A stretch of DNA of 64,000 nucleotides. Source: Dictyostelium discoideum. Its lineage: Eukaryota. Positions 20,983 to 42,880 of this stretch are shown here, one piece after another. The stretch covers positions 5,088,001-5,152,000 of the forward strand of contig CM000151.3 of NCBI GenBank assembly GCA_000004695.1, given 5' to 3'. Below the pieces are notes generated by a model. The model did not search any database, had not been told where the DNA came from, and was given only the letters and a program-made list of their open reading frames with translations. The position numbers and the translations under genes are program-made. The first letter of the stretch is position 1, and each line of letters starts with the position of its first letter.

Positions 20983-21511
20983 CCTTTGACCAAAAAAAAA
21001 AAAAGTGAAAGCGAAAGTAAAAGTAAGAGTAAGATTTTAATTAATTGTTTTTTAATTTTTATTATTATTTTTTAATTTTTAATTTTTTTTTTTTTTGTAA
21101 TGGTTATATATTGGCCCTTTGCCTGGTATATTTTATTTTTTTTATTTTTTTATTTTTTTTTATATTTTTATATTTTTTATATTTTTGCATATTAAAAAAG
21201 TAAAATATAATAATTTTTTAAAATTTTTCCATGCTACTCACAGCATAATATCATGTTAATTTTTGTGATATTATTGACGTCAATAAAATTGATATTTTCA
21301 GATTCGCTTGATTAAAAATAAAAAAAATAAAAATAAAAAAAATAAAAATATTGGGATTTTTTTTTATGTTTCCCAACAGTTTTTTAAAAATTTTAAAGAC
21401 ACCACACCTTTTCCCAATAGAATTTTTGATTTTTTCCAAAAAAACAAAAAAAAAAAAAAAAAAAAAAACCAGTCATAACCCCTATTGTATGAATATTTGT
21501 GCTAGAATATG

Positions 21512-21550
<39 letters not shown>

Positions 21551-21824
21551 AAAACAAAAATAATTAATAAATAATTTGGTGAAGGGATTTTTGATAGGAA
21601 TTCGGTAGTTTCCAAAATGTTTTATCAAAAAAAAAATAAAATAAAATAAAAAAAAATTAATTAATTTCATTGGTTAGTAGTTTCTTCATTATTATTTTTT
21701 TTTTTTTTTTTTTTTTTTAATTGTTGGTAAAAAATTGATTCCCCAAAAAAAAAAAAAATTAAAAATAAAAAGTGTTAGGGAAATCTGTTTGTTTTATTTA
21801 GTTTAATAGTATGTATACAATGGG

Positions 21825-21884
<60 letters not shown>

Positions 21885-22510
21885 ATTTTATTTTATATTT
21901 TTTTTTTATTTTTTTTTTTTATTATTTTTTTTTTTATAAAAATTATATAACAACATATGTACTAGTTGTAAATTAAATTATTTGTTTAAAAATTAATTAA
22001 TTATTTATTTATTTATTTATTTATTAAAAGTTGTTTTTTTTATTTGTTCTTTTTATTTATTTTACATTTTCATTGCAAAAAATTCAAATCAAAACTTTTT
22101 TTTTTTTATAAGGTAAATAATTTTTTAAACAGTGTCAACTATTATTATTTTTTTTTCCACTTGTTCACTAAAATCTCCAAAAAAAAAAAAAAAAAAAAAA
22201 CACAAAGAGTAATTAAATCTCCAACTTACGTACGAAACATCAAAATCTTTTTTTTCATTTGTTCAAAATATTATTAAATAAAAAAAGAATAAAAAAATAA
22301 AAATTTTACTAAATTTCATTCAATATTTAAATTAGTAAATTTTTTTTCCAACTTCTGTTTTTTTTTCAAAAAAAAAAAAAAATTAAATTAATTATTTCCC
22401 AAACCTAATCTTTTTTTTTTTTTTTTCTATAATTTAAAACCAGACAAACTTTCTAAAAAAAAAAAATCCTTATTTAATAATAATAATAATTATAATAATA
22501 CTATTTCAAA

Positions 22511-22829
22511 ATGACATTTAATAATATTAAAGACGAAAATAACGATGATATTGCCATCATTGGTATGGGTTTCCGTTTTCCAGGTGGTGGTAATAATCCA
22601 GATCAATTTTGGAATCAATTATCAAATAAAATGGATGGTATTTCAAAGATTTCTCAAGAAAAATGGTCAAGATCTTTTTATGAACAAAAATATATAAATA
22701 ACGAATATGGTGGTGTCTTAAAAGATGAAGAATGGAAAAATTTTGATCCATTATTTTTTGGTATTTCACCAAAAGAAGCACCAACCATTGATCCACAACA
22801 ACGTCTTTTAATGACAACACTTTGGGAAG
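22511..22829 (+). CDS. type I iterative reducing polyketide synthase, copy A, exon 1 of 2 (KS N-terminus)
   Basis: [26 protein letters not shown]...[14 protein letters not shown] is the canonical KS start. Donor GTAAAT at 22830. Confidence 0.9.
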
Positions 22830-22912
22830 GTAAATAATAATAATAATTATAATTATAATAATAGTAGTATTTTTTTTTGTTAAAATTAAAAAGTTATTAA
22901 TATATATACATA

Positions 22913-22970
<58 letters not shown>

Positions 22971-22972
22971 AG

Positions 22973-25900
22973 CATTTGAAGATGCAAATATTAAACCATC
23001 AACATTACGTGGATCAGATACAGCAGTATTTATTGGTATGATGAATCTTGATTATCAAAGATGTCAATTCAGAGATATATCATATATTAATCCGTATACA
23101 GTTACTGGTAGTGCAGGATCATTTGTATCAAATCGTTTAAGTTTTAGTTTTGATTTACGTGGTCCATCAATGACACTTGATACAGCATGTTCATCATCAT
23201 TGAATGCAGTTTATCTTGGTTGTCAAGCTATTGCAACTGGTGATAGTAAGATGGCAATTGTTGGTGGTGTCAATGGTATTTTCGATCCAAGTATTTCAAT
23301 GACATTCTCTGGATTAAATATGTTGGGACACAAAGGTCAATGTAGATCATTCGATGCTGGTGCTGATGGTTACATCCGTAGTGAAGGTGGTGGTGTTTGT
23401 ATCCTAAAGAAATATTCAGATGCAATTAAAGATGGTGACCGTATTTATTGTGTTATCAAAGGTGGTAGTTCAAATGTTGATGGATACAATGCAAAGACCA
23501 ATATCACTCAACCATCAATGAAGGCTCAAGGTGAAAACATTGAAATTGCTTTAAAGAAATCTGGTGTAAATCCATCAGATATCTATTATATAGAAGCTCA
23601 TGGTACTGGTACACCAGTTGGTGATCCGATTGAAATTGAAGCAATATCAAGAATATTCAAAGATAATCATACACCCGATGCTCCATTGTACATTGGTTCA
23701 GTTAAAAGCAACATTGGTCATCTTGAAAGTGCTGCCGGTATTGCATCATTAATCAAAGTTGCACTCTCTTTAAAAAATCGTTCATTGGTTCCAAATATTC
23801 ATTTTGAAAAACCAAATCCATTAATCAAATTCGAAGATTGGAATATTCGTGTAGTCACTGATGAAATCCAGTTCCCAACCAATAAATTAATTAATATGGG
23901 TATTAATTGTTTTGGTCTATCTGGTTCAAATTGTCATATGATTCTAAGTGAAGCACCAATTAATTATGATGAATTATTGAAAACAACAAATAATAACTCT
24001 ACATCCTCTTCTTCAAATGATGATAAAAAAGAATATTTAATACCATTTTCAGCAAACTGTAATATTTCATTAGATAAATATATAGAGAAATTAATTTCAA
24101 ACCAATCTATTTATAAAGATACAATATTATTTAAAGATTTTGTAAAACATCAAACAATTTCAAAATCAAATTTAATAAAGAGAAAAGTTATAACCGCTTC
24201 CGATTGGGATGACTTTTTAAATAAAAGAAATGAAACTACATCAACTTCATCATTGACTTCAACAATTTCAGCACCAGCTTCATCAACTCCAGTCATTTAT
24301 GTTTTCACCGGTCAAGGCCCACAATGGAGAGATATGGGTAAAGCATTATATGAAACTGAATCAGTATTTAAAGATGCCATTGATCATTGTGATAAATTAC
24401 TTGCTAATTATTTTGGATATTCAATACTCCAAAAGTTACGTTCATTAGAAAGTGATGATTCACCAGAAATTCATCATCCAATTTTAGCACAACCAAGTAT
24501 TTTCTTAATTCAAGTTGGTTTAGTCGCACTTTATAAATCATTTGGTATTTCACCATCAATTGTAGTTGGTCATAGTTTTGGTGAAGTTTCATCCGCTTTA
24601 TTCTCTGGTGTCATCAGTTTAGAAACTGCTGTTAAAATCGTTTACTATAGAGGCTTAGCTCAAAATTTAACAATGGGAACTGGTAGATTATTATCAATTG
24701 GTATCGGTGCTGATGCTTATCTTGAAAAATGTGCTTTATTATATCCAGAAATTGAAATAGCTTGTTATAATGATCCAAATTCAATTGTTATTACTGGTTC
24801 TGAACAAGATTTGTTAGGTGCTAAATCAACACTATCAGCTGAAGGTGTTTTTTGTGCTTTCTTAGGTACACCATGTTCTTTCCACTCATCAAAACAAGAA
24901 ATGATTAAAGAAAAGATATTCAAAGATTTATCAGATTTACCAGAATCAAATGTACCATGTGTACCATTCTTTTCAACAATTACTGGTTCACAATTATCTC
25001 ATAAAGGTTTCTACAATGTTCAATACATTTATGATAATTTACGTATGCCTGTTGAATTCACCAAAGCCATTTCAAACATTTTCAATTTCATTGAAGAAAA
25101 TGAATCATACAAGAATGCAATCTTTTTAGAGATTGGTCCTCATCCAACTTTAGGTTTTTATATTCCAAAATGTAAACCATCAAATTCAACAATAACTTCA
25201 AAACCAATTATAGTATCACCATTACATAAAAAGAAAGAAGAATTAACACAATTTAAATTAGCAATTTCAACTCTATATTGTAATGGTGTTGAAATTGATT
25301 TTGCAAGTGGTCAACAATTATTACCAACTTCTTCTTCATCCGGAGGTGGCGATATATCATCATTTAAAGAGTCGACAAATAAATTACCAAGATACCAATG
25401 GGATTTTGAAGAATATTGGGATGAACCAAACCAAAGTAAAATGGTAAAACGTGGTCCATCAAATAATTTATTAGGTCATGATCAATTTGCAGGTAATACT
25501 TTAATGGAATTATTTATTGATATTAATAAATCTGCTCATCAATATCTAAAAGGTCATAAAATTAAAGGTAAATATCTTTTCCCAGGTTCTGGTTATATTG
25601 ATAATATTCTTCGTCAATTCAATGGTCAAGATATTACCATTTTCAATTTAGAATTTTCAAATCCATTCTTTTTGAAAGATGGTGTTCAACATCATTTACA
25701 AACTTCAATTACACCAACTACCAAGGGTGAATTTAAAGTTGAATTCTTTATAAAGGATAATAGAAACTCAACTAAATGGACTAAAACTTCAAATGGTCGT
25801 ATTGGATTATTCAAACATAATCCAAAGAATAATAAATTGGATATTGAAAAACTTAAAAGTCAATGTTCATTTACCACCCTTACAAAGTCTGAAGTTTACA

Positions 25901-28900
25901 ATAAGCTATTGTTATTAAGTTTACCATATGGTCCAACTTTCCAAAGAGTTGAATCATGTTCAATTGGTGATGGATGTTCATTCTTTAAACTTTCAATGTC
26001 ACCTTGTTCAGAGTTTGACAAAGATTTCTTAAATCCTTCAATTATTGATTGTGCATTCCATGGTTTATTAGTACTCAGTGAAGGTCCACAAGAGATTGTT
26101 TTCGATCGTTTACAAGATATGAAATTCTATTCTTCAAATGTACCTTCAACAAGACCTCAATTCATTTATGCCTTTGCTAAATTCGATAAAATTGTAGGAA
26201 ATTCAACTCATGGTTCTCTAGATATCATGTTAGAAGATGGTACATTATTAATTTCAATTAAAAATGTTAAATGTACATCATTAATACGTTTAAAGAAACA
26301 ATCAATTAAATATCCTTCACAAAATGTTTATTCACACCATTGGCAATCAAAAGATTCACCATTAACTTTAATTGAAAATCAATTAATTGAAGAGAAATCA
26401 TCAGAATCTAAAATTAATTTTGAAAAATTATTAAATGATAAATTATTTAATGATTATTTAATTAGATTATTAAACCAATCAATTAAATCTGAATTTATAG
26501 AATTCGATTATAAAACTTCAACAGTAGATACTTTAGAAATTGATTCAAATAATACAAAACTATTAGAAAAGATTCAATCAATTTTAAAAACAATTGATTC
26601 ATTAGATCAATCAATTGATTTAGCTAGTTTAAAACAAGTAATTATTGAAAAATCATCATCATTTAAAAAAGAAATTAATTTAATTGAAAAATCAATCAAA
26701 CGTATTGTTTCATTATTAAAAGGTGGTGAAAGTGAACATTTTTCACCAAGTAATCCAAGTTCACCAAATGACACACCAAGATATAATTCAAACAATTGTT
26801 CTTCAAAGAGTAATAATACCTCTAGTGGTGCTGATGATGATACTAACAATGAAGAAACAATTAATCAATTAAATAATGAACCATTTAATTTCTCAAATTC
26901 TCAATTCATTTCAAATCAAAATCAATTAATTTCAAAAACAATTGTAAATTCATTTGATAGATTAATTAATTCGATTGAAATTGGCGAAAAGAAATTAATT
27001 AAAATAATTGATTTATCAAGTATCTATCAAAATAATCAACTTTCAAAATTATTATTATTACAATTAAATCAATTACTAATTAATTTATCAAATAATAATA
27101 ATATTGAAATTGAATATACAATTCCATCAAATACCAAAAATATTGATTCAATTAAAGAAGAAACTAAATCGATTTCAAATTTATTAAATATTAAATATCG
27201 TAGTTTTGATTTACAAGATGATTTAGAAAGTAATGGTTATTTAAATTCAAATTATGATTTAATTATAACTTCTTTATTATTAGTTTCAACAAACTCAATT
27301 GATTCAAATGAAGTTTTATCAAAACTTTATAAATTATTATTACCAAAAGGTCAATTAATTTTAATGGAACCACCAAAGGATGTATTATCATTCAATCTTT
27401 TATTTGCAAATGATTTCAAACAATCATTAGAAATTAAAAGTGAACAAGAAATTAAATCATTAATTAGATATTGTGGTTTCACTAAAATTGAAACAAATAA
27501 TATTACCCAAGATGATGAAGAAGAACAACAACAACCACCATCAATTTTAATAGTTCAAACTGAAAAGAGAGATATTGAATCAATGTCATTGACTTTCTCA
27601 TCAGATCCAGAATCATTAAATTCTTCATATAGTAATTGTATATTCATAGTTTCAAAAGAACAAAAAGAAAATCCAACTTCATATATTCAAGAATATTTTG
27701 ATATTACTGAAGTATTCTGTGATAACACTACAATTATTGAAGCTGGTGATAGTGAATTATTAACAAAGACAATTGAATCAGGTATTGGTAAAAATGATAT
27801 TATTTTCTTTTTAGTTTCACTTGAAGAATTAACAATTGAAAATTATAAACAAGTTACAATGCAATATACATTAGTTAATCAAATACTTTTAAGAAATAAT
27901 CTTTCAACTAGATTTGCTTTATTAACTTACGATTCTCAAAATGGTGGTAAAAATTATTTAGGATCATCATTAATTGGTACTTTTAGATACTTTTTAGAAT
28001 TTCCATCATTGAATACCTTTTCAATTGATGTCGATAAAGATTCAATTGATAATCTTACATTATTCTTACGTTTAGTTGATCTATCTACAATTGGTGATAG
28101 AGAAACTATTGTTAGAAATAATAAAATTTTTGTTCAAAAGATTTTCAAAGAGCCAAAATTGTTATCACCATCAAATAATTACGAAAAGGATACAAATAAT
28201 TTATATTTGAATACAAATAGTAATTTAGATTTTTCATTCCAATGCAAAGAGAAATTACCACATGGTTCCGTCGAAATTAAAGTTATGTCAACTGGTATCA
28301 ACTATAAAGATAATCTTTTCTATAGAGGTTTATTACCACAAGAAATCTTTACAAAAGGTGATATTTATTCTCCACCATTCGGTTTAGAATGTGCTGGTTA
28401 TATTACACGTGTTGCACCAAGTGGCGTTACTCGTTTCAAAGTTGGTGATCAAGTTGTTGGTTTTGCAAGCCATTCTTTAAGTTCACTAGCTATTACTCAT
28501 CAAGATAAAATTGTATTAAAACCTGAAAATATTTCATTCAATGAAGCTGCTGCCGTTTGTGTAGTTTATGCAACAAGTTATTATTCAATTTTCCATATTG
28601 GTGCATTTATGGCCGATAAAGAATCAATCCTAGTTCATTCTGCAACTGGTGGTGTTGGTTTAGCAACTTTAAATCTTTTAAAATGGAAGAGAAATCAATT
28701 GAAAAAACATGGCAACTCTGAAATTAGTAATGATGCTTCAATTTATGCTACAGTGGGTTCTAAAGAAAAAGTCGATTATTTACAAGAGAAATATGGTGAT
28801 TTAATAACTGCAATTTACAATAGTAGAGATACTGAATATTGCGATGAAATTAAACAACAATCAGCACAAGGAGGTGTAGATTTAATTTTAAATACACTCT

Positions 28901-30465
28901 CTGGTGATTATTTATCTGCAAATTTCCGTTCACTTTCCCAAGTTGGTAGAATTATGGATTTATCAGTCACTCAATTGGTTGAAAATGATTCATTAGATTT
29001 TTCAAACTTTAAGTATCATGTTACTTACAGTACAATCGATTTAGAAAGAGCTACAACATATAATTCAAAAATCGTTAGAGATATCCTCACAGAAGTATTT
29101 GATGCAATTTCTGATGGTAGTCTTGAAAATATTCCAGTTAAAGTTTTCCCAGCAACTCAAGTTAAAACTGCGATTGAATATATTAATGAACGTGTTCATA
29201 TTGGTAAAATTGTAGTTGATTTTGAAAACTTTGAACAAGATATTCTTAAACCAGCTTTACAAGAGAAAGAAAATCCAATTCAATTGAATAAAGTTAAAAA
29301 ATTGGAACATACTTGTGATACTTTAAATAATACAATTTTAATCACTGGTCAAACTGGTATTGCTGTTCATATTTTAAAATGGATTATTTCTGGTTCTGTT
29401 TTAAATTCAAATAAATCACAACAACAAGTAACAGATTTCATAATTTTATCAAGATCATCATTAAAATGGGAACTTGAAAATTTAATTAATCAAACTAAAC
29501 ATAAATATGGTGATAGATTTAGATTCCATTATAAATCTGTAAATATTGCAGATTTAAATTCAACTCGTACTGCAATTGATCAAGTTTATTCAAGTTGTAA
29601 AAATGTTTCACCAATTAAATCAGTATTACATTTTGCAACAGTTTATGAATACATTTTACCAGAAGATATCACTCAAACCGTAATTGATAATACTCATAAT
29701 CCAAAAGCAGTCGGTGCAATTAATTTACATAATCTTTCAATTGAAAAAGATTGGAAATTAGAAAACTTTATTCTCTTTTCATCAATTGGTGCTATCATTG
29801 GTGGTTCAAAACAATGTGCATATAGTAGTGCTAATTTAGTATTGGATTCATTATCAAACTATAGAAAGAGTATTGGTCTTGCTTCAACTTCAATTAATTG
29901 GGGTGGTTTGGATGCTGGTGGTGTTGCCGCCACTGATAAATCAGTCGCAAGTTTCTTAGAGGGTCAAGGTATTTTATTGGTTTCTTTATCAAAGATTTTA
30001 GGTTGTCTTGATTCAGTTTTCCAACCATCTAATTCCCATTTATCAAACTTTATGCTTTCAAGTTTCAATATTGATAATCTTTTATCTTCTGCACCTCAAA
30101 TGAAGAGAAAAATGGGTCACCACCTAACAAATTATAAAACTTCATCTGCTAGCTCTGATGATTCATTGGGTGATTCTAGTTCTACTCAAGCAAAAGTCAT
30201 TTCTACAATCTCTGAATTATTATCAATTCATCCATCAAAATTAAATTTAGATACAAGATTAAAAGACTATGGTATTGATTCTTTATTAACAGTACAATTA
30301 AAGAATTGGATAGATAAAGAATTTACAAAGAATTTATTCACTCATTTACAATTATCATCAAGTAGTATTAATAGTATCATTCAGAGAATTAGTTCAAAAT
30401 CAACTTCAACATCTACTCCCAATCCAACTAACACCACAAAACAAACCGCAACAACAAAAACATAA
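22973..30465 (+). CDS. polyketide synthase copy A, exon 2 of 2 (about 2603 aa total): KS-AT-DH-(degenerate MT-like)-ER-KR-ACP, no C-terminal release domain
   Basis: Acceptor AG at 22971-22972. KS active-site [85 protein letters not shown] plus [19 protein letters not shown]. Contains track ORF 23038..30465. Confidence 0.9.
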
Positions 30466-30779
30466 GTAGTTCAAACAACTCCAACTACATTTGACACTTC
30501 TATGTTTATTCCATATTTAAAAAATTAAAAAAAAAAAATTAATAAAAAAAATTAAAAATATCTTTTAATATTAATACTTAAAAATTCTTGAACTATATTT
30601 ATTAAAAAAAAAAATTACCTTTAACCAATTTAAAAAAAAAACAAAAAAATAATAATAGTGTACAAATAAAAGAAATAATTAAAAAAAAAACAAAAAAAAT
30701 AATATTAATATTAAAGAAATGGAAAAAAAAAAAAAAAAGTGTTTAGCAAAGTTTTTTTTTTTTTTTTTTATTTGGCAAT

Positions 30780-31372
30780 GATTTTACCGAATAACGATAC
30801 GATGTTGAGTGGTAACATTATTACCAAGTTTTTCGAGATAGGTTTGGTTGTTTTTCTAAAATTTATTTAACATCTGATGTAAAACCTGCTTGTTTTTCAA
30901 CTGCTGCTTTAACAATTGCTGATACCTCTTTATCTTTGTTTTAATACTAATAAATATTCCTCTTTTTTTTTTATTGTTTAAAATAATGGTTAGTTTTTAT
31001 TAAAAAAAATTTAAAAATTTAAAACTTACTTTGATGTGTTTTAACTTGGCATGCTAATGAATAAATTTCAATACCATTGGTATTTTTCAAGAGATTATCT
31101 ATTATGATTTGAGCCAATCCATAGAATTAACTTGTTTAACCAAGAATTTTTTACCATTCTGGTACTTTTTTCAATGGTGCCATAACTTCTGGTTTATTTT
31201 GATGAACAAGGTATGCATTAACATGTGCTATTCAAGTGGCAATGTATGGTTTATTTTGATAAACTTGATCTTCCTTCTTAAAAATTTAATATTGTTAATT
31301 CTTATTAATATCATTGTGGAAATCCATTTGATCTTCAAGATATTTACTATGTTGACTAGAGATGGATTTTGA
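30780..31372 (-). pseudogene. decayed inverted partial copy of the NAA15 3' end (exon 7-like 30780-30960 and exon 6-like 31081-31372), pseudogene relic inside the duplicated PKS arm
   Basis: Reverse complement of 31081-31372 aligns to NAA15 exon 6 (45113-45539) with substitutions and a roughly 90-nt deletion. Reverse complement of 30780-30960 aligns to NAA15 exon 7 (45720-45905). No intact frame. Track ORF 31109..31372 is its antisense read-through, which explains its similarity to track ORF 45197..45436. Confidence 0.65.
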
Positions 31373-31567
31373 GAAAGATCACGGTCACCAAATAGGAATT
31401 AAAATTTTAATTTTCTGGTCGTTTGTTGTGTTTTTAATTTGTTTTTGATTTTTTTTTTTTTTTAATTTTTTTTTTTTTTTTTTTTTTTTTTTGACACTTT
31501 GGTGTTTTTGATTTTTTTTTGATTTTTTTTTTTATATTTTATTTAATTTTAAATTTTTTGAAACACA

Positions 31568-31888
31568 ATGAACAAATTTTGGGAAACTGGTAGAAAGATT
31601 GTTGCAGTAGGAAGAAATTATGCACAACATGCTAAAGAATTAGGAAATGAAATTCCATCAGAACCATTCTTTTTTTTAAAACCAACTTCAAGTTATTTAC
31701 TTCAAGGAACTGGTCCAATTGAAATCCCATTAGAATCATCAGATATTCACCATGAAGTTGAATTAGGTATTGTCATTGGTAAAAAAGGTAGAGATATTGA
31801 TTTAAAATCTGCAATGGATTATGTTAGTGGTTATACATTAGCTTTAGATATGACTTCAAGAGATCAACAATCAATTGCCAAAGCTAAA
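31568..31888 (+). CDS. FAHD1-like fumarylacetoacetate-hydrolase-domain protein (acylpyruvase/oxaloacetate decarboxylase), exon 1 of 2
   Basis: MNKFWETGRKIVAVGRNYAQHAKELGNEIPSEPFFFLKPTSS. Donor GTAAGT at 31889. Confidence 0.85.
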
Positions 31889-31995
31889 GTAAGTTTTTTT
31901 TTTTTTTTTTTTTTCAAATAAAAAAAAAACTTAAAATTATCTATACTAATTTTCATTATTATTATTATTATTATTATTGACTAATAATAATAAAG

Positions 31996-32331
31996 TCATT
32001 ACCATGGACAGTTTCAAAAGGTTATGATACATTTTGTCCAATTTCTGGATTTATACCAAAAGATAAAATTAAAGATTTAAATAATGTTGAATTATGGTGT
32101 AGTGTCGATGGTCAAATCAAACAAAAAGGTAATACCAACCAAATGATTTTCGATGTTCCACATTTAATTCAATATATTAGTTCAATTATGACATTAGAAT
32201 CTGGCGATTTAATTTTAACTGGTACACCTTCTGGTGTTGGTCCAGTAAAACCTGGACAAGTAATTAAATGTGGTATCACTGGTTTAGATACTGACATGCA
32301 ATTCGATATCATTTTAAGAAAGAGAAATTAA
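31996..32331 (+). CDS. FAHD1-like protein, exon 2 of 2 (stop 32329-32331)
   Basis: Acceptor aaag at 31994-31995. ..MIFDVPHLIQYISSIMTLESGDLILTGTPSGVGPVKPGQ.. is the FAH-fold signature. Contains track ORF 32143..32331. Confidence 0.85.
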   Translation, partial: SLPWTVSKGYDTFCPISGFIPKDKIKDLNNVELWCSVDGQIKQKGNTNQMIFDVPHLIQYISSIMTLESGDLILTGTPSGVGPVKPGQVIKCGITGLDTDMQFDIILRKRN

Positions 32332-32433
32332 AATCCTTTTAAAATTATAAATTATAAATAAAAAAAAAAAAAATTAAAAAAGAAAAAATATTTTAAAAAA
32401 AAAAATCAAGATTAATCAATTTATTATAATTTT

Positions 32434-33567
<1,134 letters not shown>

Positions 33568-33606
33568 CTTTTATGAACCAATTGGAATAAATGGGTTATT
33601 ATTAAT

Positions 33607-33637
<31 letters not shown>

Positions 33638-33677
33638 CTTTCAAAAAAAAATTTTTATATAAATATTATATACATAC

Positions 33678-33995
33678 ATCCAAACCTTCAAACATTACAG
33701 AATTTCTAAATGCTTGTTGATCAGAGACAACCCTTGTTGTTTGAGGGAAACCATGACAATGTTCTCCTTTATAAACTGTACTATTTTGATTGGTATCACC
33801 AATTCTCTCAACCTGTTTTCTGACATTACAACCTTGAAATGTACATTTATAATAGTGTCTTGGATGTAAACTTCCCTTTACATTCTTTTGACCATATTTT
33901 CTCCATTGATAACCATCAGATACAATATTAGAAATATTATTACTATTATTACTATTATTACTATTATTACTATTAGTATTACTATTTTGAGGCGA

Positions 33996-34029
<34 letters not shown>

Positions 34030-34445
34030 TGAGTTGAGTTATTTTCTTCATCTTCTTCATTATTGATATTATTAATACTATAATTGTTATTGTTATTGTT
34101 ATTGTTATTGTTATTGTTATTGTTATTGTTATTGTTATTGTTATTGTTATTGTTATTATTTATATTGTTATTATTTATATTGTTATTAGTTTTATTTTTC
34201 TTTTGTTTCTTTAAAGGTGTTGGTGTAGTAGTTGTTGTTGTTGTTGTGGTTGTTGCAGGTGATTGTTTTTGAGGAGATATTTGAACTGGTGAAAATGGTG
34301 GTTGTTGATCTGATAAATTACTTTTAGGTGAAGTTGGTACAACATTGGAAGATTTCTTTGAATAATAAGGTGATGATGAAATCATTGGTGGAATGATCTT
34401 TAAATTTGATAGAAATCCTTCTCCATTTGGTTTGTTATTTCTATA

Positions 34446-34523
<78 letters not shown>

Positions 34524-34667
34524 TTCATTATTTTTACCAAATGCAGTTTCATTATCACGTTTAAATGGATTAGTTGGAATAGGTGGGAAATAATCATTTG
34601 GTTTTTGTTCCTCTTTCTTATTGGTATTAATTATTTTTTCAGTTTGCTCTTTGTCGACTTGCATTTC

Positions 34668-34716
<49 letters not shown>

Positions 34717-34718
34717 GG

Positions 34719-34751
<33 letters not shown>

Positions 34752-35273
34752 TTCACCATGTTCTTGTTGGATTTGGTGATAATTTTCTTCTTTAATTTGT
34801 AGTTTTTGAATTTTTGAATTGGTACGAGATTGGTTTTTATTGAGAAGAGAATTATCAAATTCAGAATGAGACGTTAATTGTTGCTTTGGATTTGATTGGT
34901 TTTTATCATGATTCAATTTTTTTTGTTTAAATATCTCTGACTCTGAGAATGAATCACTTTCATCATTATTATTTTTATTTTTACTTTTATTACTAATGTT
35001 GTTTTTTTTATAATTATTGTTATTATTACCCTCAAAATATTCATCATCATCGTCATCATATTTTTCATCATCATCATCATCATCATCAATATATTCATCA
35101 CTTGCATCATATTCATCTTCATTATCACTTTTTGTTAAAAAAGTTATTTGTTGTTTTACATTATGTGTTGTAGTTTTATTTTTTTTTTGTTTAGTGGTTT
35201 TATTTACAGAGTTTTTTACAATTGGTTGTAATTTATTATTATTATTATTATTTATATTTTCTATAGCATCCTT

Positions 35274-35339
<66 letters not shown>

Positions 35340-35604
35340 TTGTTGTTGTTTTTGTTCTTGTTCTTGTTCTAGTTGTTTTTGTTGTAATGCCAATAATTTC
35401 TTTGCCATATATTTACTAATTTTACCATTTTGTTGTGGTGAATTACCGCCATTAGTATCATTAAGATTGGATTTGAGTTTTGGTTTTTGTAATTTAGCCG
35501 ATTTGTTTGGTTTATCAACAAATGTTGGTTCATTATTTTCAATGGTGTCATCATCACCATAATCATCTTCATCATCTTCATTATTATTGTTGTTGTTGTT
35601 GTTG

Positions 35605-35647
<43 letters not shown>

Positions 35648-36263
35648 TATTATTTGTGGTTGTAGTTGTAGTTGTAGTTGTGGTGGTTGATGAACCATTT
35701 ACACCAACTTTGTTATTTTCATTATTATTATTATTGTTGTTATTATTATTATTTACATTAATTTCATTGATATTGGTAAGAAATGATTTATCTGGTGATA
35801 TGGATAGAATTGAAGAATTTCTTAATTCCTCAATTGAAAATGATTGATTCTCTTTCAATGATTGATGAAGTTTGTGGAATAATACTAACTCTTTTTCACC
35901 TGGTTTAATTTGATTTGCTGATTTGATCATATTTTGAATAAAATCTCTATCACTATTATTATTATTACTATTACTATTATTGGGTATGTTGGTGTCTTTA
36001 TTTGTATTATTTATAAGACTTTCAAAATAATTGGAATATTTATTTATTCCATTATTATTATTATTATTATTGCTATTGCTATTGCTATTGCCATTGTTTT
36101 TATTATTGTTATTGTTATTGTTATTGTTATTGTTATTGTTATTGTTATTGTTATTGTTATTGTTATTGTTATTGTTATTGTTATTGTTATTGTTATTGTA
36201 ATTGTTATTGTTATTGTTATTGTTATTGTTATTATTTAAATTTTCATTACCAGAAATAGTGTG

Positions 36264-36327
<64 letters not shown>

Positions 36328-36359
36328 TTATTTAATTCGGTGGAATATTGAGCTCCCAT
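33678..36359 (-). CDS. wrky1: WRKY transcription factor, exon 1 of 2 (894 aa; extreme poly-Asn/poly-Gln/acidic low complexity; N-terminal WRKY domain at its 3' end)
   Basis: ATG at 36359 (MGAQYST..). WRKYGQK plus C-X4-C...H-X-H zinc finger ([41 protein letters not shown]). GTATGT donor immediately after GAT (plus-strand acatac, 33672-33677). Confidence 0.85.
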
Positions 36360-36589
36360 CTTTTTATATAATTATTAAGTATATTATTTTTATTTTAATT
36401 TGTGATTTTTTCCAAAATGAAAATAAAAAATAAGAATTCTTCCGAAAAAAAAAAAAAAAAATTAAAAAAATTAAAGTTGTATTCAAAAAAATAAAAAAAA
36501 AAAGAATCAATTAATTAATTCTGTATTTTTGTATCCTATAATTAATTTATTATAAAGAAAAATAAAAAAAATATATGTCGTATTAGTAA

Positions 36590-36632
<43 letters not shown>

Positions 36633-36807
36633 GATTTATAAAGAGGCACACGCAAATCTGTTATTTAATTAAATTTAGTGATCAAAAAAAATAATAATAA
36701 TAATAATAATAATAGTAATAAAAAAATAATAAAATAATAAAAAATATAAAATATAAAATATAAAGTGATAAATCTTTTAAAAGATTTTTTTTATTTTATT
36801 TTTGTGT

Positions 36808-36855
<48 letters not shown>

Positions 36856-37225
36856 AAAAAATAAAAACTGGCAAAAATCGATTTTTATATTTAATGTTAA
36901 TAAAAAAAAAAAATTAAATAAATAAAAATTATTGGTGCTGGGTTGTAATTTATTTGTTGTTTATTTGTTTTTTTTTTTTTTGTTTTATTGGTAATGATGA
37001 CAAAGGATTTTTTTTTTTTTTTTTTTTTTTTTAAATAAAAAAAAAAAAAAAAAATTATAATATTATTAATTATTAAATTGAATTATAATACCCCTCCAGA
37101 CATCATTAATATGAATAAAATTATAGATAAAAATGGTACAATTTTAAAATAAAAATTATTTTTATTTTTTTTTTTTAAAAAAAAAAGGAACACATTCATA
37201 TTTCTTGTGTAAAATAATTATGAGC

Positions 37226-37478
37226 AAGTGTGTGTTGGTGTTGAGTGTGAGTTTGTGATTTAAATTTCTTTTTTTTTTTTCTTTTTTTTATTTTATTTTA
37301 TTTTTATTTTTTTAGTTCATGACATATTTGTAGAACAAAATAGAGAACAAATAAAAATTAAAAAGTAAAAATAACAAAATAAAAACTAAAAATAAAAAAA
37401 ATAAAAAAAACTCTTTCTCTATTTAAATAAATGTGTTGTAATTTTATTGTGTTTGTGCGTGGGGGTGGTGTGTGTTGA
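37226..37478. promoter_or_regulatory. GT-rich G-box-like elements (37226-37258, 37449-37478; a further one at 38298-38333) in the 2.1 kb divergent intergenic region between wrky1 (ATG 36359, -) and the KAS gene (ATG 38494, +)
   Basis: gcaagtgtgtgttggtgttgagtgtgagtttgtg; gtgtttgtgcgtgggggtggtgtgtgttga; tgtgtgtttgtgtgtttgtgtgtgtgtt. These are islands of mixed composition within poly-A/T DNA. Confidence 0.3.
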
Positions 37479-38493
37479 TGAAACCAAAAAATTGAAAAAT
37501 AATTGAAAATACATTGTATTTGATGAAATAATAACAATCATAAAGATTGAAGATAATGAATGTGCATATTACTCTTAAAAACAATGGGTAACACACACTC
37601 TTGTGTGGTTTTTTTTTTTATTTATTTATTTTTTTAATTTTTTTTTTATTTAATTTTGTTTATTTTTTTTTTTTTCCATAATCTATTTTTTCTTTTTTTT
37701 TTTTGGTTTTTTTTTTTATTTTTTTTTTGTGACTTACCTTTTTATAATCAATTTTTGCCCTGATGTAAATTCTTAGTTATTTGCGAAAAAGTTTCTTTTT
37801 TTGGAGAATGTGGTTTTTTTTTTTTTTTTTTAAATATTGCAATCCTAAATGAAATAGTGATTTATTTATTTATTTTTCCCTTTTTATTGCTAAAAAAAAT
37901 TATAAAATACAAAACAATTAAAATAATGTATTAAAAAAAAAAAAAAATAAAAAAATAAAAAAATAAATGAAAAAAAAAAAAATAAAAAATAAAAAAAAAC
38001 AAAAAAAGAAACTTTATAAATAAACAAATTTGGGTGATGGAATTTATATAAACAGTTTCATTTGACGTCAATTATTGTTATTTTTGTTTGAGTATCTATT
38101 GTTTGTTTGTTTTTTTGTTGTTGTTGTTATTGTTATTGTTGTGCCCTTTTTATAAATTTAAAAGAAGAAAAAAAAAATAAAAAAAAGTTCTTCTTTTGAT
38201 TATCTATAAATTTTTATAATTATTGTTATTATTATTATTTATTTGGTACCACACATAAACATAAGGTTTTTTTTTGTTTTTTTTTGTTTTTTTTTTTGTG
38301 TGTTTGTGTGTTTGTGTGTGTGTTATCTGTCCTTAAAATAAAATAAAAACACAAAAAAAAAAATGAAAATTAAAAAAAAAATTAAAAAAAAAAAAATAAA
38401 ATAAAATTTTCATTTTTTTTTCTTCATTTCCCAAACAAAATGCCACTTTAATTTGAAAAATAGTTAAAAAGGTGCCAAAATTTAAAAAATCGA

Positions 38494-39807
38494 ATGTTAA
38501 AAACCAATATAAATAAAATAATTGTGGGAGAATCTTCAAGATTTTTACGCGCACAAAATTCTTCTCTTACTAATGGTTTTCTAAAAATCCAACACACCAC
38601 CACCACTAAAAGAAGTTTCTGTAATTTTACTACCACCCCACAAATAAATAACAACACAAATAATAATAATAATAATAATAGTAATAATAACAGTTTAAAT
38701 GACAATTTTATTAATAACAATATAAAAAATAATGAATATTTAAAATTAAAAAGAGTTGTTGTAACTGGGATGGGTATTGTATCTCCATTAGGTGTAGGAA
38801 TAAAATATAATTGGGATAAATTAATAAATGGTGAGAGTGGAATTAAAAGATTTGAAGGATTTGAAGATAGTAGAATTGATTGCCCATCAAAAGTTGTAGC
38901 AAGAGTACCAAAAGGTGAAGGTATAGGTGAGTTTAATTCAAATACTATGATACCATCACAAGTGAAATTGGCAAGCTCTGATTTCATAAAATATGCAATC
39001 GTTGCAACTGATGAAGCTATTAAAGATTCAAAACTAGATAAATTCATTGAATCAAATGAAAAACTTCAAGAAAGAATTGGAGTATGTATTGGTTCTGGTA
39101 CAGGTTCAATGGAAGAAATTATCTCAGCAAATGAAAAGATTTCAAATAAATTAAATAACAATAACAATAACAGTGATAGTGGTAGTGGTAGTGGTAGTGG
39201 TGGTGGTGGTGGTAAAGTTTCAGCATATTTTATACCAAAAATTTTAATTAATGAAGCATCTGGTATAATTAGTATTTTACATAAAGCGAAAGGACCTAAT
39301 ATGTCAATTGTTAGTGCATGTGCAACTGGGTCTCATTGTATTGGCGAATCATTTAGAAAGATAAAATATGGTGAAGTGGACGCAATGATATGTGGTGGTA
39401 CTGAAGCGAGTATAAATTCAGTTTCAATGATTGGTTTCTCACGTATGAAAGCATTATCAACCAAATATAATAATCATATTAATCCATCATCAAGTAGTAG
39501 ACCATTCGATGAAGGTAGGGATGGATTTGTAATGGGTGAAGGCTCTGGAATATTAATATTGGAAGAGTATGAACATGCTTTAAAAAGAGGTGCAAATATT
39601 TATTGTGAAATCACTGGTTATGGTTCAACTGGCGATGCCCATCATATTTCAGCTCCAAATTCTGATGGAAACGGTCCGTTAAGGTCAATGAATTTAGCAT
39701 TACTAGAATCTGGTTTACCAAATTCCTCTCATATCGATTATATAAATGCTCATGCAACTTCAACGCCATTAGGTGATGGTATTGAATGTACTGCTGTTAA
39801 AAACTTT

Positions 39808-39858
<51 letters not shown>

Positions 39859-40119
39859 GAAATTATAATGAGCTCAAATAAAGGTTCAATTGGTCATTTG
39901 TTGGGTGCTGCTGGAAGTGTTGAATCAATATTTTCAATTTTATCATTATATAATAATATTATACCACCAACTTTAAATTTAGAAAATCCATCAAAAGATT
40001 GTCAGGGTATAAATTTAGTACAATTTAAATCTCAATCAAAACCAATTAGAAATGTTTTAAAAAATTCATTTGGATTTGGTGGAACAAATTGTTCTTTAAT
40101 TTTTTCAAAAATAAATTAA
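38494..40119 (+). CDS. mitochondrial-type 3-oxoacyl-[acyl-carrier-protein] synthase (KAS II / OXSM homolog)
   Basis: Single ORF of 541 aa. N-terminal presequence-like MLKTNINKIIVGESSRFLRAQNS. KS catalytic triad context SACATGSHCIG, HATSTPLGD, GHLLGAAG. Dictyostelium-style poly-Asn and poly-GSG insertions. Confidence 0.85.
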
Positions 40120-40178
40120 ATAAATTAAATTTTGGAAAAAGGAAAAAGGAAAAAAAAAACGAACAGGATATTTTTTTT

Positions 40179-40219
<41 letters not shown>

Positions 40220-40280
40220 AAAAAAACGAAATCAACGACCGAGTAATTTTTTTTTTTTTTTTTTAATTTTTTAATTTTTG

Positions 40281-40311
<31 letters not shown>

Positions 40312-40410
40312 ATTTCTCTTCTCTATCTCACTTTCCCAAAAAACTTAACCTTTTTAAATTATTTTATAAATATTTATTATAAAATAATAAAAAAAAGAAA
40401 AAAAAAAAGA

Positions 40411-42120
40411 ATGATTTCATCAATTCAATGGGTACCAAGAGGTGCATCAAATCCATTCCCAAAGAAATTTGACCCAAATGGTGAAGATATGGAAGAATTA
40501 AATGAAGAAGAAATTAAAGCAATGCAAGAAGAGGAAGAAGAAGATAGAATAATTGAAAAGAAATTTGAAAAGGGTGTACCAAGTGTTATGAATGACAAAG
40601 AAAAAGATTTTTATAAGAGATATAATTTTGATGATTATGATAGTGATGAAGGTGAACAAGATGAAGAGGAAAGAGATGAAAATGATCATAGTCGTAAAAC
40701 AGAAGAAGTTGGATTAAAATTCATTAATAGAGCAATGAAGGGTTTAATGTTTTATAAAGATACAGATTCAGATCCATACTTAACCAATAAGGAAGAAGAG
40801 GATATTGAAGATATAGAGGATGTTATTATTAGACCAACCGATTCAATATTGGTATCAGCAATTGTCACTGGTGAAGATGATTATTCGCATTTAGATATTA
40901 TGGTCTATGAAGAGGAATGCGATAATCTATACGTTCATCATGATATTATCCTCTCATCATATCCATTGGCATTGGCATGGATGGATCAAAACCCAATAAA
41001 TCCACAAGAGAAAGGTTCGTTCATGGCCGTTGGTACTTTCGAGCCATCCATCGAAATTTGGGATTTGGATGTTGTAGATAATTTAATTCCAACCGTTATA
41101 TTGGGTGGTAAAGAAGAGGATAGCGCCGATCCAATGAAAAAGCCATCCGCTAAAAAACGTGGTGGTAAACATAATAAATTCAAGGAAGGTAGTCATAGAG
41201 ATGGTGTTATGTCTCTCTCTTGGAATAGTCATCAACGTAATGTTTTAGCAAGTGGTAGCAGTGATAATACCGTCAAGGTTTGGGATATCACAACTCAACA
41301 ATGTCTCAACACCTTTACTCATCATAAGGATAAAGTATCTTGTTTACATTGGAATTCTCATGAGAAAACTGCACTTTTAATTGGTTCTCATGATAAACAT
41401 GTTAGTATTCTCGATGTTCGTGCACCAGATTCCGCATATAAATGGTCCGTAAAAGGTGAGGTTGAATCTTTATCTTGGAATCCACATAATCCAAAAGAGT
41501 TCATCGTTGGTACTGATGATGGTAGATTACTTTGTTATGATGCTACACTTGGTACTGCCGCTGCTCCAGTTTGGTCTGTTCAAGCCTCTCAAAAAGGTAG
41601 CGTCTCTTGTTTCTCCTATTGTCCTGGTCAAGTTGGTTTCTTTGCAACTGGTTCCTCTGATCATACTGTTAAACTTTGGAATTTAGAAACCTCCTCAAAT
41701 AAACCAACCCTCATTGAATCTAAAAATTTAGGTCAAGAAATTTTCACACTTTCATTCTTTGAAAATTCACCTTTCCTCTTAGCAGTTGGTTCTGAAACTC
41801 AAAGACCAAATGTAATTGACACTAAAAGATTTATCTCTGTACAAAATAGTTTTGGTATCGCTAGACCTGAAAATTCAAAAGAACCAGTTTTCATTACAAA
41901 TAATAAAAATAAAAATAATACTGAAGAAGAAGAAGAAGAAATTGAAGAAGATACTGATAGTGATCATAATGATGATGAAATTGAAGAAGAACAAGAAGAA
42001 GAAGAACAAGAAAAAGAAATTACACCTCCACCAAAACAAACTAAAAAATTAAATAATACAAAAAATAATAAAAAAGATGTTAAAAATAGAAAGAAAGTTG
42101 GTGATTCAGATGAAGAATAA
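40411..42120 (+). CDS. pwp1: periodic tryptophan protein 1 homolog (PWP1, WD40 ribosome-biogenesis factor)
   Basis: Single ORF of 569 aa. MISSIQWVPRGAS.. and ..LYVHHDIILSSYPLALAWMD..IEIWDLDVVDNLIP.. match PWP1 (FYVHHDILLSAYPL..IEVWDLDIVDSLEP). WD repeats. Acidic tails. Confidence 0.85.
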   Translation: MISSIQWVPRGASNPFPKKFDPNGEDMEELNEEEIKAMQEEEEEDRIIEKKFEKGVPSVMNDKEKDFYKRYNFDDYDSDEGEQDEEERDENDHSRKTEEVGLKFINRAMKGLMFYKDTDSDPYLTNKEEEDIEDIEDVIIRPTDSILVSAIVTGEDDYSHLDIMVYEEECDNLYVHHDIILSSYPLALAWMDQNPINPQEKGSFMAVGTFEPSIEIWDLDVVDNLIPTVILGGKEEDSADPMKKPSAKKRGGKHNKFKEGSHRDGVMSLSWNSHQRNVLASGSSDNTVKVWDITTQQCLNTFTHHKDKVSCLHWNSHEKTALLIGSHDKHVSILDVRAPDSAYKWSVKGEVESLSWNPHNPKEFIVGTDDGRLLCYDATLGTAAAPVWSVQASQKGSVSCFSYCPGQVGFFATGSSDHTVKLWNLETSSNKPTLIESKNLGQEIFTLSFFENSPFLLAVGSETQRPNVIDTKRFISVQNSFGIARPENSKEPVFITNNKNKNNTEEEEEEIEEDTDSDHNDDEIEEEQEEEEQEKEITPPPKQTKKLNNTKNNKKDVKNRKKVGDSDEE

Positions 42121-42211
42121 AATAAAATTAAATAATAAAATTAAATAAAAAAAAAAAAAGATTTTAAAAATATAATTAATTTTTTTTTTTTTTTCCAAGG
42201 ATAGGATCTTC

Positions 42212-42243
42212 AAAAGATACAAAGGGATTTCTTTGTATCTTTT
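42212..42243. other. perfect 13-bp inverted repeat (aaaagatacaaag - ggattt - ctttgtatctttt) about 90 nt downstream of the pwp1 stop codon; candidate 3'-UTR hairpin or protein-binding palindrome
   Basis: Direct inspection. Stem 42212-42224 pairs perfectly with 42231-42243. Mixed base composition, which is unusual in this A/T background. Confidence 0.5.
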
Positions 42244-42441
42244 CTAGATGTGTTTTAAAATGTATTTTATTTAAAGTTAAAATTTATATTATTTTTTTTT
42301 TCATATTATTAATTTTTTTTTTTTTTTAAACTTCTTATATATTGGAACTGGGAGGAGGTAATGGATTTATTGGTCACATCTTTGATTTTTAGTAGAAAGT
42401 TTTTTGATGGTGGCTATTATCGAGTTTTCCTATTCTTTATT

Positions 42442-42496
<55 letters not shown>

Positions 42497-42842: not shown

Positions 42843-42880
<38 letters not shown>

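What the first reader, a model, noticed from the sequence alone, without database searches (positions are those of the whole stretch)
31371..31404. 31-nt filler at the duplication breakpoint identical to a segment of the CCHC/RD-repeat gene 11 kb away
Homology between the two arms ends at about 31355, inside the NAA15 exon-6 relic. Immediately after it comes gagaaagatcacggtcaccaaataggaatta (31371-31401). This is identical over 31 nt to 20026-20056, the end of the (RE)n tract and the SRSPNRNY codons of the gene at 19775-20935. The sequence is G/C-containing and non-repetitive. A chance match of this length in 64 kb is negligible. This looks like templated filler DNA inserted at a double-strand-break repair junction by microhomology-mediated template switching. 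That gives a mechanistic signature for how the inverted duplication was formed.
Basis: seen in the sequence. Interest (0 to 1): 0.5.

Follow-up and report, generated by a model that had tools for sequence, protein, structure and literature searches.

The report
Decayed gene fragment, not repair filler
The 31-base exact match is real, but it is the best-preserved piece of a decayed partial gene copy left at the edge of an old tandem duplication of a Dictyostelium fatty-acid/polyketide synthase gene, which a later inversion in the AX4 lineage turned into the inverted repeat seen here; it is an ordinary relic, not repair filler.

Summary
None is expected by chance, and it starts 27 nt after arm homology ends at 31344.

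The interpretation does not hold. The window is Dictyostelium discoideum AX4 chromosome 2 (pks16, pks17). Two outgroups, D. citrinum and D. firmibasis, have one PKS in the order CCHC-PKS-(GST)-NAA15. Two non-AX4 D. discoideum / cf. discoideum assemblies carry two PKS units in tandem. At their head-to-tail junction they carry the same NAA15 relic, followed by an orthologous but more decayed copy of this very sequence.

The sequence left of the 31-mer also derives from the CCHC gene. All blocks are collinear and on the same strand as the parent. So the 31-mer is the remnant of a truncated CCHC copy: the tandem unit began inside CCHC, about codon 33, and joined to an NAA15 exon at a 3-nt microhomology. 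Most of the copy was later deleted.

The inverted arrangement arose afterwards, by a two-break inversion of window 31412-55657. One break lies 10 nt 3' of the 31-mer. The other lies in the poly-T of the ancestral intergenic region upstream of FAHD. Interest is low; this is a tidy locus history.

The parts
19775..20935 (+). Intact CCHC/RD-repeat gene (386 aa), the parent of the junction fragment
   Evidence: ORF. Exact product found in GCA_054883475.1. Orthologues lie just upstream of the PKS in D. citrinum and D. firmibasis.
19873..19910 (+). Source of the first decayed block of the junction fragment (TTTACGATGCCCTCGAATGATCGTAGAGATAGAGAT). The tandem-duplication boundary 'c' lies at about 19873, about codon 33.
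   Evidence: The ACTFIY junction shares an 18-nt exact run with this stretch of its own CCHC gene, reached by 0 of 500 shuffles. Sequences.
20025..20055 (+). Source copy of the 31-mer (codons ERSRSPNRN)
   Evidence: Identical in the ACTFIW CCHC gene and with 1 synonymous change in ACTFIY.
21089..30689 (+). Left arm: the ancestral upstream tandem unit R2 (pks16 upstream region plus pks16, DDB_G0275069)
   Evidence: Self-blastn. Outer end of homology at 21089 <-> 55621. Pfam PKS domains. Protein identity with XP_643784.1.
30690..31344 (-). Relic of the 3' part of NAA15 (NatA auxiliary subunit), ending at duplication boundary 'b' inside an exon
   Evidence: The intact gene at about 43256-46105 carries the NatA_aux_su domain. 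Ancestral exon sequence CTTCAAGATATT|CAAGATG.
31345..31370 (+).
   Evidence: Orthologous to ACTFIW TACCATGTAGCCAATCGTAGAGACAGAGATGGATTTT and ACTFIY TTCTATGTACCCGATCGTAGAGATAGAG, both of which match CCHC. AX4 alone is not significant (237 of 500 shuffles reach its score).
31371..31401 (+). The 31-mer: the best-preserved block of the truncated CCHC copy
   Evidence: The orthologous copy has 5 mismatches in ACTFIW (L008 8560, L011 18648). A diverged copy is present in ACTFIY.
31402..31411 (+). Tail AAATTTTAAT, shared with the tandem junction of ACTFIW. Inversion breakpoint 1 falls after 31411, ambiguous within TTTTAAT (31405-31411).
   Evidence: Alignment with L008 runs to 31411 and then diverges. 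The ancestral FAHD-upstream sequence resumes at TTTCTGGTCG.
31412..45122 (.). Single-copy segment S (FAHD, two WRKY ORFs called as a single gene in other assemblies, KS, WD40, 5' part of NAA15), inverted in AX4 together with the right arm
   Evidence: Pfam. Same gene order next to FAHD in all other assemblies.
45123..55621 (-). Right arm: the ancestral downstream tandem unit R1 (3' part of the intact NAA15, pks17 DDB_G0275077, and its upstream region)
55622..55657 (-). The rest of the ancestral tandem-junction/intergenic sequence (reverse complement ATAATAATATCAATAAAAAAAAAATAATAATAAAGG), separated from the 31-mer by the inversion
   Evidence: Matches ACTFIW sequence directly 3' of its 31-mer copy, and ACTFIY's CCHC-downstream intergenic region.
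55658..59500 (-). Gene W (about 900-940 aa) with its 3' intergenic region. It is the ancestral upstream neighbour of FAHD, here inverted and moved to the far side. A19 at 55658-55676 is the other half of the broken poly-T (inversion breakpoint 2).
   Evidence: blastn against L002 and L004-L007 on the minus strand, 80-95% identity. Sequences.

Best explanation
The 31-mer is the least-decayed block of a truncated, non-functional copy of the CCHC gene.

Step 1 (shown). After the split from D. citrinum and D. firmibasis, a segment of about 11.5 kb duplicated head-to-tail. It ran from inside the CCHC gene (about window 19873), through the CCHC-PKS intergenic region and the PKS, to an exon in the 3' part of NAA15.

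Step 2 (shown). The junction reads NAA15 ...CTTCAAGATATT | TAC.ATG... CCHC. It has a 3-nt microhomology (ATT) inside an 8/10 similar patch.

Step 3 (inferred). The partial CCHC copy upstream of the second PKS decayed by deletions. It lost most of its (AGAGAT)n repeat and about 1 kb between the end of the 31-mer and the intergenic region. That left about 60-90 nt of collinear blocks.

Step 4 (shown). In the AX4 lineage a two-break inversion of window 31412-55657 (24.2 kb) turned the tandem pair pks16/pks17 into an inverted pair. One break lies 10 nt 3' of the 31-mer. The other lies in the poly-T tract about 160 nt upstream of the FAHD start codon. Gene W moved to the far side, and the relic came to lie in front of FAHD.
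For: - Single-copy outgroups have the order CCHC-PKS-GST-NAA15 and no second 31-mer-like sequence at up to 7 mismatches.
- Two PKS genes are annotated in all four non-AX4 D. discoideum / cf. discoideum assemblies. The tandem arrangement itself was seen in the two that could be fetched: in ACTFIW with the NAA15 relic plus an orthologous junction aligned through window 31411, and in ACTFIY with a diverged copy.
- The left block is CCHC-derived: an 18-nt exact run in ACTFIY, reached by 0 of 500 shuffles.
- The sequence 3' of the 31-mer is collinear with the CCHC-downstream intergenic region.
- Inversion: W lies on the minus strand to the right of the R arm. The W-FAHD adjacency is ancestral, being present in D. 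citrinum and four other assemblies. The two halves of both broken sequences are recovered at J1 and J2.
- The junction is identical in a second AX4-type assembly.
- Perfect 31/31 identity is compatible with the relic's substitution rate: P = 0.14.
Against: - The roughly 1-kb gap between the 31-mer and the intergenic region is present in all three junctions available. A post-duplication deletion is therefore inferred, not seen in an intermediate.
- AX4's own left block is too decayed to be recognised alone (237 of 500 shuffles reach its score).
- The ACTFIW and ACTFIY copies share CACGG->CATAG, whereas AX4 equals the source. This needs either parallel mutation or a conversion event in AX4.
- Junctions of ACTFIR and ACTFIZ could not be fetched because the look-ups were exhausted.
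- A whole-genome count of the 31-mer in D. discoideum was not possible.
Confidence: 0.8

Rival explanations
1. Templated filler at the older tandem-duplication junction. During the duplication, the repair or replication end switched templates several times: NAA15 exon, then CCHC about 19873-19910, then about 19935-19950, then 20025-20055, then the intergenic region at about 21065. The CCHC pieces were never part of a continuous duplicated unit.
For: All three available junctions share the same gaps on both sides of the 31-mer. No intermediate with a longer CCHC copy was seen. The template lies about 1 kb outside the continuously duplicated part. There is microhomology at the NAA15|CCHC joint.
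Against: It needs three or four successive jumps that all happen to be collinear, on the same strand, and in exactly the position a head-to-tail unit starting inside CCHC would give. The region demonstrably keeps losing DNA: a 12-nt AX4-specific deletion, ACTFIY-specific deletions, and about 600 nt lost upstream of pks17 in AX4. Two of the gaps lie in or next to slippage-prone (AGAGAT)n and AAT-rich tracts.
Confidence: 0.12
2. One reading: a 31-nt templated filler inserted when the inverted duplication formed, as a signature of microhomology-mediated template switching at that event.
For: In AX4 the 31-mer lies between the end of arm homology (31344) and the start of FAHD-upstream sequence (31412). 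It is absent upstream of FAHD in all non-inverted assemblies.
Against: The orthologous sequence is already present at the tandem junction in strains without the inversion. The inverted arrangement is explained by one inversion whose two junctions contain only the two halves of pre-existing sequences. The flanking 26 nt are also CCHC-derived.
Confidence: 0.02
3. An add-on to the best explanation: AX4's perfect 31/31 identity was restored by a short ectopic gene-conversion patch from the CCHC gene about 11 kb away, rather than by chance preservation.
For: The ACTFIW and ACTFIY junction copies share CACGG->CATAG, while AX4 matches the source at all 31 positions. Shared derived states in the adjacent relic (ATTGT) group AX4 with ACTFIW, so CATAG may be ancestral to all three copies. 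The AX4 sequence immediately to the left is badly decayed.
Against: P(31/31) by chance is about 0.14 at the relic's substitution rate. The match was selected for being exact. Both shared changes are GC->AT at one CpG in a strongly AT-biased genome, so parallel hits are plausible. Only 31 nt of homology would be available to seed conversion.
Confidence: 0.2
4. The 31-mer is part of a dispersed repeat or mobile element present at many genomic sites.
For: None found.
Against: There are only two copies in the 64-kb window at up to 3 mismatches. In about 250 kb of related loci it occurs only in the CCHC gene and at the junction. There are no exact matches in the metagenome contig collection. No tRNA gene is nearby; by established knowledge, Dictyostelium TRE elements target tRNA genes. 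It is in-frame conserved coding sequence in the source.
Confidence: 0.01

Closest known systems
Truncated gene copies (pseudogene fragments) at the boundaries of tandem segmental duplications
   Same: The fragment starts where the duplicated unit starts. It lies at the head-to-tail junction and is collinear and co-oriented with its parent. It is absent from single-copy relatives. It decays by point changes, an in-frame stop (TAG in ACTFIW) and deletions.
   Different: About 1 kb of the fragment is missing in every junction sampled, so continuity with the rest of the unit is inferred. In AX4 the junction has since been split by an inversion.
Templated insertions at repair junctions (polymerase-theta end joining, FoSTeS/MMBIR template switching)
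   Same: A short stretch at a rearrangement junction is identical to nearby sequence, and microhomology is present at the NAA15|CCHC joint.
   Different: There are several collinear, same-strand blocks flanked by decayed homologous sequence. The stretch predates the rearrangement it was attributed to, and the inversion junctions themselves have no insert.
Inversions flanked by inverted duplications from staggered breaks (Ranz et al. 2007, Drosophila; recalled from memory, not read here)
   Same: The final structure has an inverted segment with an inverted repeat at its ends. I considered this model in mid-analysis.
   Different: Here the repeat existed beforehand as a tandem duplication in non-inverted strains. 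A plain two-break inversion suffices, and no new duplication accompanied it.

Membership tests
Templated filler insertion at a double-strand-break or template-switch junction | The insert arose together with the rearrangement whose junction it occupies (absent from the pre-rearrangement state) | tested here: not met
   For the inversion and inverted arrangement, the orthologous sequence is present in non-inverted tandem strains (L008/L011, L012). For the older tandem duplication it is absent from single-copy outgroups, which both models predict.
Templated filler insertion at a double-strand-break or template-switch junction | A discrete copied block whose flanks are unrelated to the flanks of the template | tested here: not met
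   The flanks are also derived from the template's neighbourhood, in collinear order and on the same strand.
Templated filler insertion at a double-strand-break or template-switch junction | Microhomology between the primer end and the template at each switch point | tested here: inconclusive
   A 3-nt ATT microhomology sits at the NAA15|CCHC joint. The other block boundaries lie in repeats or are too decayed to read.
Truncated gene copy at a tandem segmental-duplication boundary | Lies at the head-to-tail junction of the two units in genomes that keep the tandem arrangement | tested here: met
   L008 8514-8600, L011 18600-18690 and L012 18100-18190 lie between the PKS#2/NAA15 relic and the second PKS.
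Truncated gene copy at a tandem segmental-duplication boundary | Collinear and co-oriented with the parent gene relative to the duplicated neighbour | tested here: met
   The blocks from CCHC about 19873-19910, about 19935-19950 and 20025-20055, then the intergenic region from about 21065, all lie on the + strand in that order.
Truncated gene copy at a tandem segmental-duplication boundary | Absent from relatives with a single-copy unit; parent sequence conserved there | tested here: met
   D. citrinum L009 and D. firmibasis L010 have one PKS, CCHC with SPNRNY codons, and no second copy.
Truncated gene copy at a tandem segmental-duplication boundary | Uninterrupted homology from the fragment into the rest of the duplicated unit | tested here: not met
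   About 1 kb (source about 20056-21065) is missing in all three junctions, so a deletion has to be assumed.
Dispersed repeat / mobile element | Many copies at unrelated sites | tested here: not met
   Two copies in the window. Only the CCHC gene and the junction carry it in the related loci. None in metagenome contigs. A whole-genome count in D. discoideum is not testable with these tools.
Inversion with staggered-break inverted duplication | The duplication is created by the inversion event itself | tested here: not met
   Both PKS units pre-exist in tandem in non-inverted strains.

The most novel reading that the evidence does not exclude
There are two unexcluded readings. (1) The collinear CCHC blocks were laid down by serial template switching during the tandem duplication, which would make this a multi-jump replicative junction. 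(2) AX4's flawless 31-mer was refreshed by ectopic gene conversion seeded on only about 31 nt of homology. If the second were true, it would be an unusually short conversion substrate, now placed about 170 nt upstream of the FAHD start codon, where it could matter for regulation.
Probability: 0.15. Interest if true: 0.4.

Novelty: new member of a known kind. Interest (0 to 1): 0.2.

Why it matters
- It corrects a tempting mechanistic inference. An exact short match beside a repeat boundary looked like repair filler, but comparison with related genomes shows a decayed duplicated gene edge.
- It gives a base-level history of the pks16/pks17 pair. Pks16 is thought to be the main fatty-acid synthase of D. 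discoideum (PMC12828403). The history is tandem duplication in the D. discoideum group, then a 24-kb inversion in the AX4 reference lineage.
- The inversion is absent from the other sequenced D. discoideum / cf. discoideum strains, so it is a structural difference to bear in mind when the reference is used.
- The inversion replaced everything beyond about 160 nt upstream of FAHD.
- It left 9.5-kb inverted repeats that could now flip the 13.7-kb spacer by homologous recombination.

Tried and rejected
- Whole-window repeat finder and an unfiltered blastn gave unusable volumes of low-complexity hits. I replaced them with filtered blastn.
- Exact look-ups of the FAHD exon-1 ORF and of the WRKY ORF found nothing.
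- I first modelled the locus as an inverted copy inserted between CCHC and FAHD. I then modelled it as an inversion with staggered-break duplication (notes). Both were dropped when L008 showed a pre-existing tandem pair.
- The 11-nt ATATTTACTAT shared with the ancestral W-FAHD intergenic region looked like a second template. It is better explained as CCHC GAATTTACGATG.
- A possible continuation of NAA15 homology (AGATGGATT versus AGATGATT) after a 15-nt insertion, and a possible 40-nt local inversion near 21060, were both abandoned. The ACTFIY and D. citrinum sequences explain these stretches collinearly.
- MAFFT misplaced the left block because of the (AGAGAT)n repeat. Long-gap pairwise alignment was used instead.
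- The tRNA scan was negative, and the metagenome scan for the 31-mer was empty.
- Two literature searches found nothing on this junction or inversion.

Full report
**Observation**

The 31-mer GAGAAAGATCACGGTCACCAAATAGGAATTA is present at 31371-31401 and at 20025-20055, both on the + strand. No further match exists at up to 3 mismatches, and none is expected in shuffles. The bases on either side differ, so the exact match is 31 nt. In the source it lies in frame in a 386-aa single-exon ORF (19775-20935) and encodes ...RERSRSPNRNY....

Self-blastn defines the inverted arms as L 22179-30688 plus patches to 31344, and R 54651-46215 plus patches to 45123. The outer ends were later extended to L 21089 / R 55621. 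The 31-mer therefore begins 27 nt past the inner end of the left arm.

**Gene map**

Pfam scans give the following:
- A Methyltransf_10 C-terminal fragment at 18618-19490.
- The CCHC ORF.
- A PKS on + at 22511-30465 (left arm).
- A 3' relic of NAA15 on the minus strand, ending at 31344.
- An FAA-hydrolase gene (FAHD), two exons, starting at 31568.
- Two WRKY ORFs.
- A ketoacyl synthase.
- A WD40 gene.
- An intact NAA15 at about 43256-46105.
- The second PKS on the minus strand (right arm).
- A minus-strand gene at 55836-57989.

The proteins identify the window as Dictyostelium discoideum AX4 chromosome 2. FAHD is XP_643785.1, the left PKS is pks16 (DDB_G0275069) and the right PKS is pks17 (DDB_G0275077).

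**Comparison with other genomes**

The FAHD protein was used to fetch its neighbourhood from seven assemblies.
- Only one other assembly, GCA_054883475.1, has a PKS upstream of FAHD as the window does. Its junction is identical base for base (L003).
- Five assemblies instead have a 900-940-aa gene, which I call W, on the + strand upstream of FAHD. They are ACTFIY (GCA_054859205.1), ACTFIR (GCA_054859385.1), ACTFIW (GCA_054859355.1), ACTFIZ (GCA_054859235.1) and D. citrinum (GCA_054859325.1). None of them has the 31-mer there.
- In the window, W and its 3' intergenic region lie on the minus strand to the right of the right arm, at 55658 to about 59500, with 80-95% identity.

The segment containing FAHD is therefore inverted in AX4 relative to all the others, including the outgroup.

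**The duplication was tandem**

The PKS was used to fetch its neighbourhood.
- D. citrinum and D. firmibasis have a single PKS in the order STAT, methyltransferase-like, CCHC, PKS, GST, NAA15 (minus), WD40, KS.
- All four non-AX4 D. discoideum / cf. discoideum assemblies have two annotated PKS genes.
- In the two assemblies I could read, the pair is head-to-tail: CCHC, PKS#2, a junction, then the PKS, then intact NAA15 (L008/L011 for ACTFIW, L012 for ACTFIY).
- In ACTFIW, PKS#2 is followed by the same NAA15 relic. The alignment with the window then runs straight through 31345-31411 (84% over 521 nt). It includes the copy GTGTAAGATCATAGTCACGAAATAGGAATTA, which has 5 mismatches and now contains a stop codon.
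- ACTFIW then continues with AATAATAAAAATAATAATAAAGATTTTTTTTTATAATGGTATATTGTCC. In AX4 that sequence is found, reverse-complemented, at 55657 downwards.
- ACTFIW's own CCHC gene carries the exact 31-mer.

The sequence therefore predates the inversion and belongs to the tandem junction.

**It is more than 31 nt**

ACTFIY's junction reads ...AAATCCATTTGATCTTAAAGATATTTTCTATGTACCCGATCGTAGAGATAGAGAAAGATCATAGGAAACCAAATTGGAATTATAATAATCATAATTGTCC. The stretch CGATCGTAGAGATAGAGA is an 18-nt exact match to the CCHC gene about 130 nt upstream of the 31-mer. No shuffle out of 500 reaches that score.

The orthologous stretches are TACCATGTAGCCAATCGTAGAGACAGAGATGGATTTT in ACTFIW and TACTATGTTGACTAGAGATGGATTTT in AX4. 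These are progressively more decayed versions of CCHC TTTACGATGCCCTCGAATGATCGTAGAGAT...ACAGAGATCGATAT. AX4's version is undetectable on its own (237 of 500 shuffles reach its score), which is why only the 31-mer caught the eye.

To the right of the 31-mer, the R1-side sequence AATATAATAATATCAATAAAAAAAAAATAATAATAAAGG(T)8ATAATGG matches the CCHC-downstream intergenic region. That region is best kept in ACTFIY: TTTTTTTAATAATATTAATAATAATAATAATAAAGAT(T)nGTAATGG. From there homology continues at 90% (21089 <-> 55621).

All blocks are on the same strand and in the parental order. That is what a head-to-tail unit beginning inside CCHC predicts. Independent template jumps would achieve it only by coincidence.

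**The duplication joint**

- The ancestral NAA15 exon, read antisense, is CTTCAAGATATT|CAAGATGATTC in ACTFIY, D. citrinum and D. firmibasis.
- CCHC is GACGAATT|TACGATGCCC.
- The junction is CTTCAAGATATT|TAC(T)ATG.

This gives a 3-nt microhomology (ATT) within an 8/10 similar patch.

**The inversion**

The two pre-inversion sequences, with the break marked ^, were:
- the tandem junction ...GGAATTAAAATTTTAAT^(A)ATAATAA...
- the W-FAHD intergenic region ...TTATTTTAAAACTG(T)n^(AATT)TTCTGGTCG...

AX4's J1 is ...AAAATTTTAAT|TTTCTGGTCG (31411|31412). J2, read in reverse complement, is ...AAAACTG(T)19|ATAATAATATC (55658|55657). The exchange is reciprocal, without filler and without appreciable loss. 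The breakpoints are ambiguous within a few A/T bases. The inverted segment is 31412-55657, 24.2 kb.

**Is the perfect identity remarkable?**

Relic versus intact NAA15 shows 93.9% substitution identity. That gives P = 0.14 for 31 of 31, before allowing for the fact that the match was noticed because it is exact.

One oddity remains. The ACTFIW and ACTFIY copies share CACGG->CATAG, while AX4 equals the source. Shared changes in the adjacent relic group AX4 with ACTFIW. Either there were parallel GC->AT changes at one CpG, or a short conversion from CCHC occurred in AX4. I cannot decide between these.

**Other checks**

- No tRNA genes occur in the window.
- The 31-mer is absent from the metagenome contig collection.
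- The literature describes Pks16 and Pks17 as 96% identical. Pks16 is thought to be the primary fatty-acid synthase, the only one of the pair transcribed in vegetative cells, and Pks17 acts late in culmination (PMC12828403). I found nothing on this junction or the inversion.

**Verdict**

What is there is an ordinary decayed gene fragment plus a lineage-specific inversion. Interest is low; the reconstruction is useful mainly as a record of the locus history.

Noticed in passing
window 31412-55657: The 24.2-kb segment from FAHD to pks17 is inverted in AX4 and in GCA_054883475.1, relative to four other D. discoideum / cf. discoideum assemblies and D. citrinum. This is a structural difference between the reference lineage and other strains.
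   Followed up: yes
L009 18503-19213; L010 18311-18934; compare window 30466-30700 and 46106-46434: D. citrinum and D. firmibasis have a 207-aa GST gene between the PKS and NAA15. In D. discoideum only about 240-330 nt separate these genes, so the GST appears to have been lost, or was gained in the other lineage.
   Followed up: no
L012 18579-25386: In ACTFIY the pks17 orthologue is called at only 2155 aa. blastn shows about 1 kb missing (window equivalent 27948-29025), and its upstream region is heavily deleted. The downstream PKS copy may be degenerating in that strain.
   Followed up: partly
window 45127 (G) versus relic 31340 (A): The intact NAA15 of AX4 and ACTFIW has CAAGGTATT where ACTFIY, D. 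citrinum, D. firmibasis and all relics have CAAGATATT. At this site the relic preserves the ancestral base and the functional gene carries the derived one.
   Followed up: partly
window about 21200-21800 versus 55500-55560: The region upstream of pks17 in AX4 lacks about 600 nt that are present upstream of pks16. The two paralogues, which are expressed at different stages according to PMC12828403, have different 5' flanks.
   Followed up: no
window 57282-57464: There is an internal direct repeat (57282-57380 versus 57366-57464, 92%) inside gene W. The length of W varies from 898 to 941 aa among strains.
   Followed up: no
window 34433-34469 and 60101-60137: A 37-nt direct match at 97% identity links the large WRKY ORF to a site 25 kb away (self-blastn). 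It was not examined and may be low-complexity coding repeat.
   Followed up: no
window 31412-31567: After the inversion, only about 160 nt of the ancestral FAHD upstream region remain attached to FAHD. Everything further upstream is now the CCHC relic, the NAA15 relic and the 3' end of pks16, so FAHD regulation could differ between strains.
   Followed up: no
window 32434-33354 and 33666-36359: The two WRKY-domain ORFs are called as a single gene of 1114-1271 aa in the other assemblies. They are probably one intron-containing gene.
   Followed up: no
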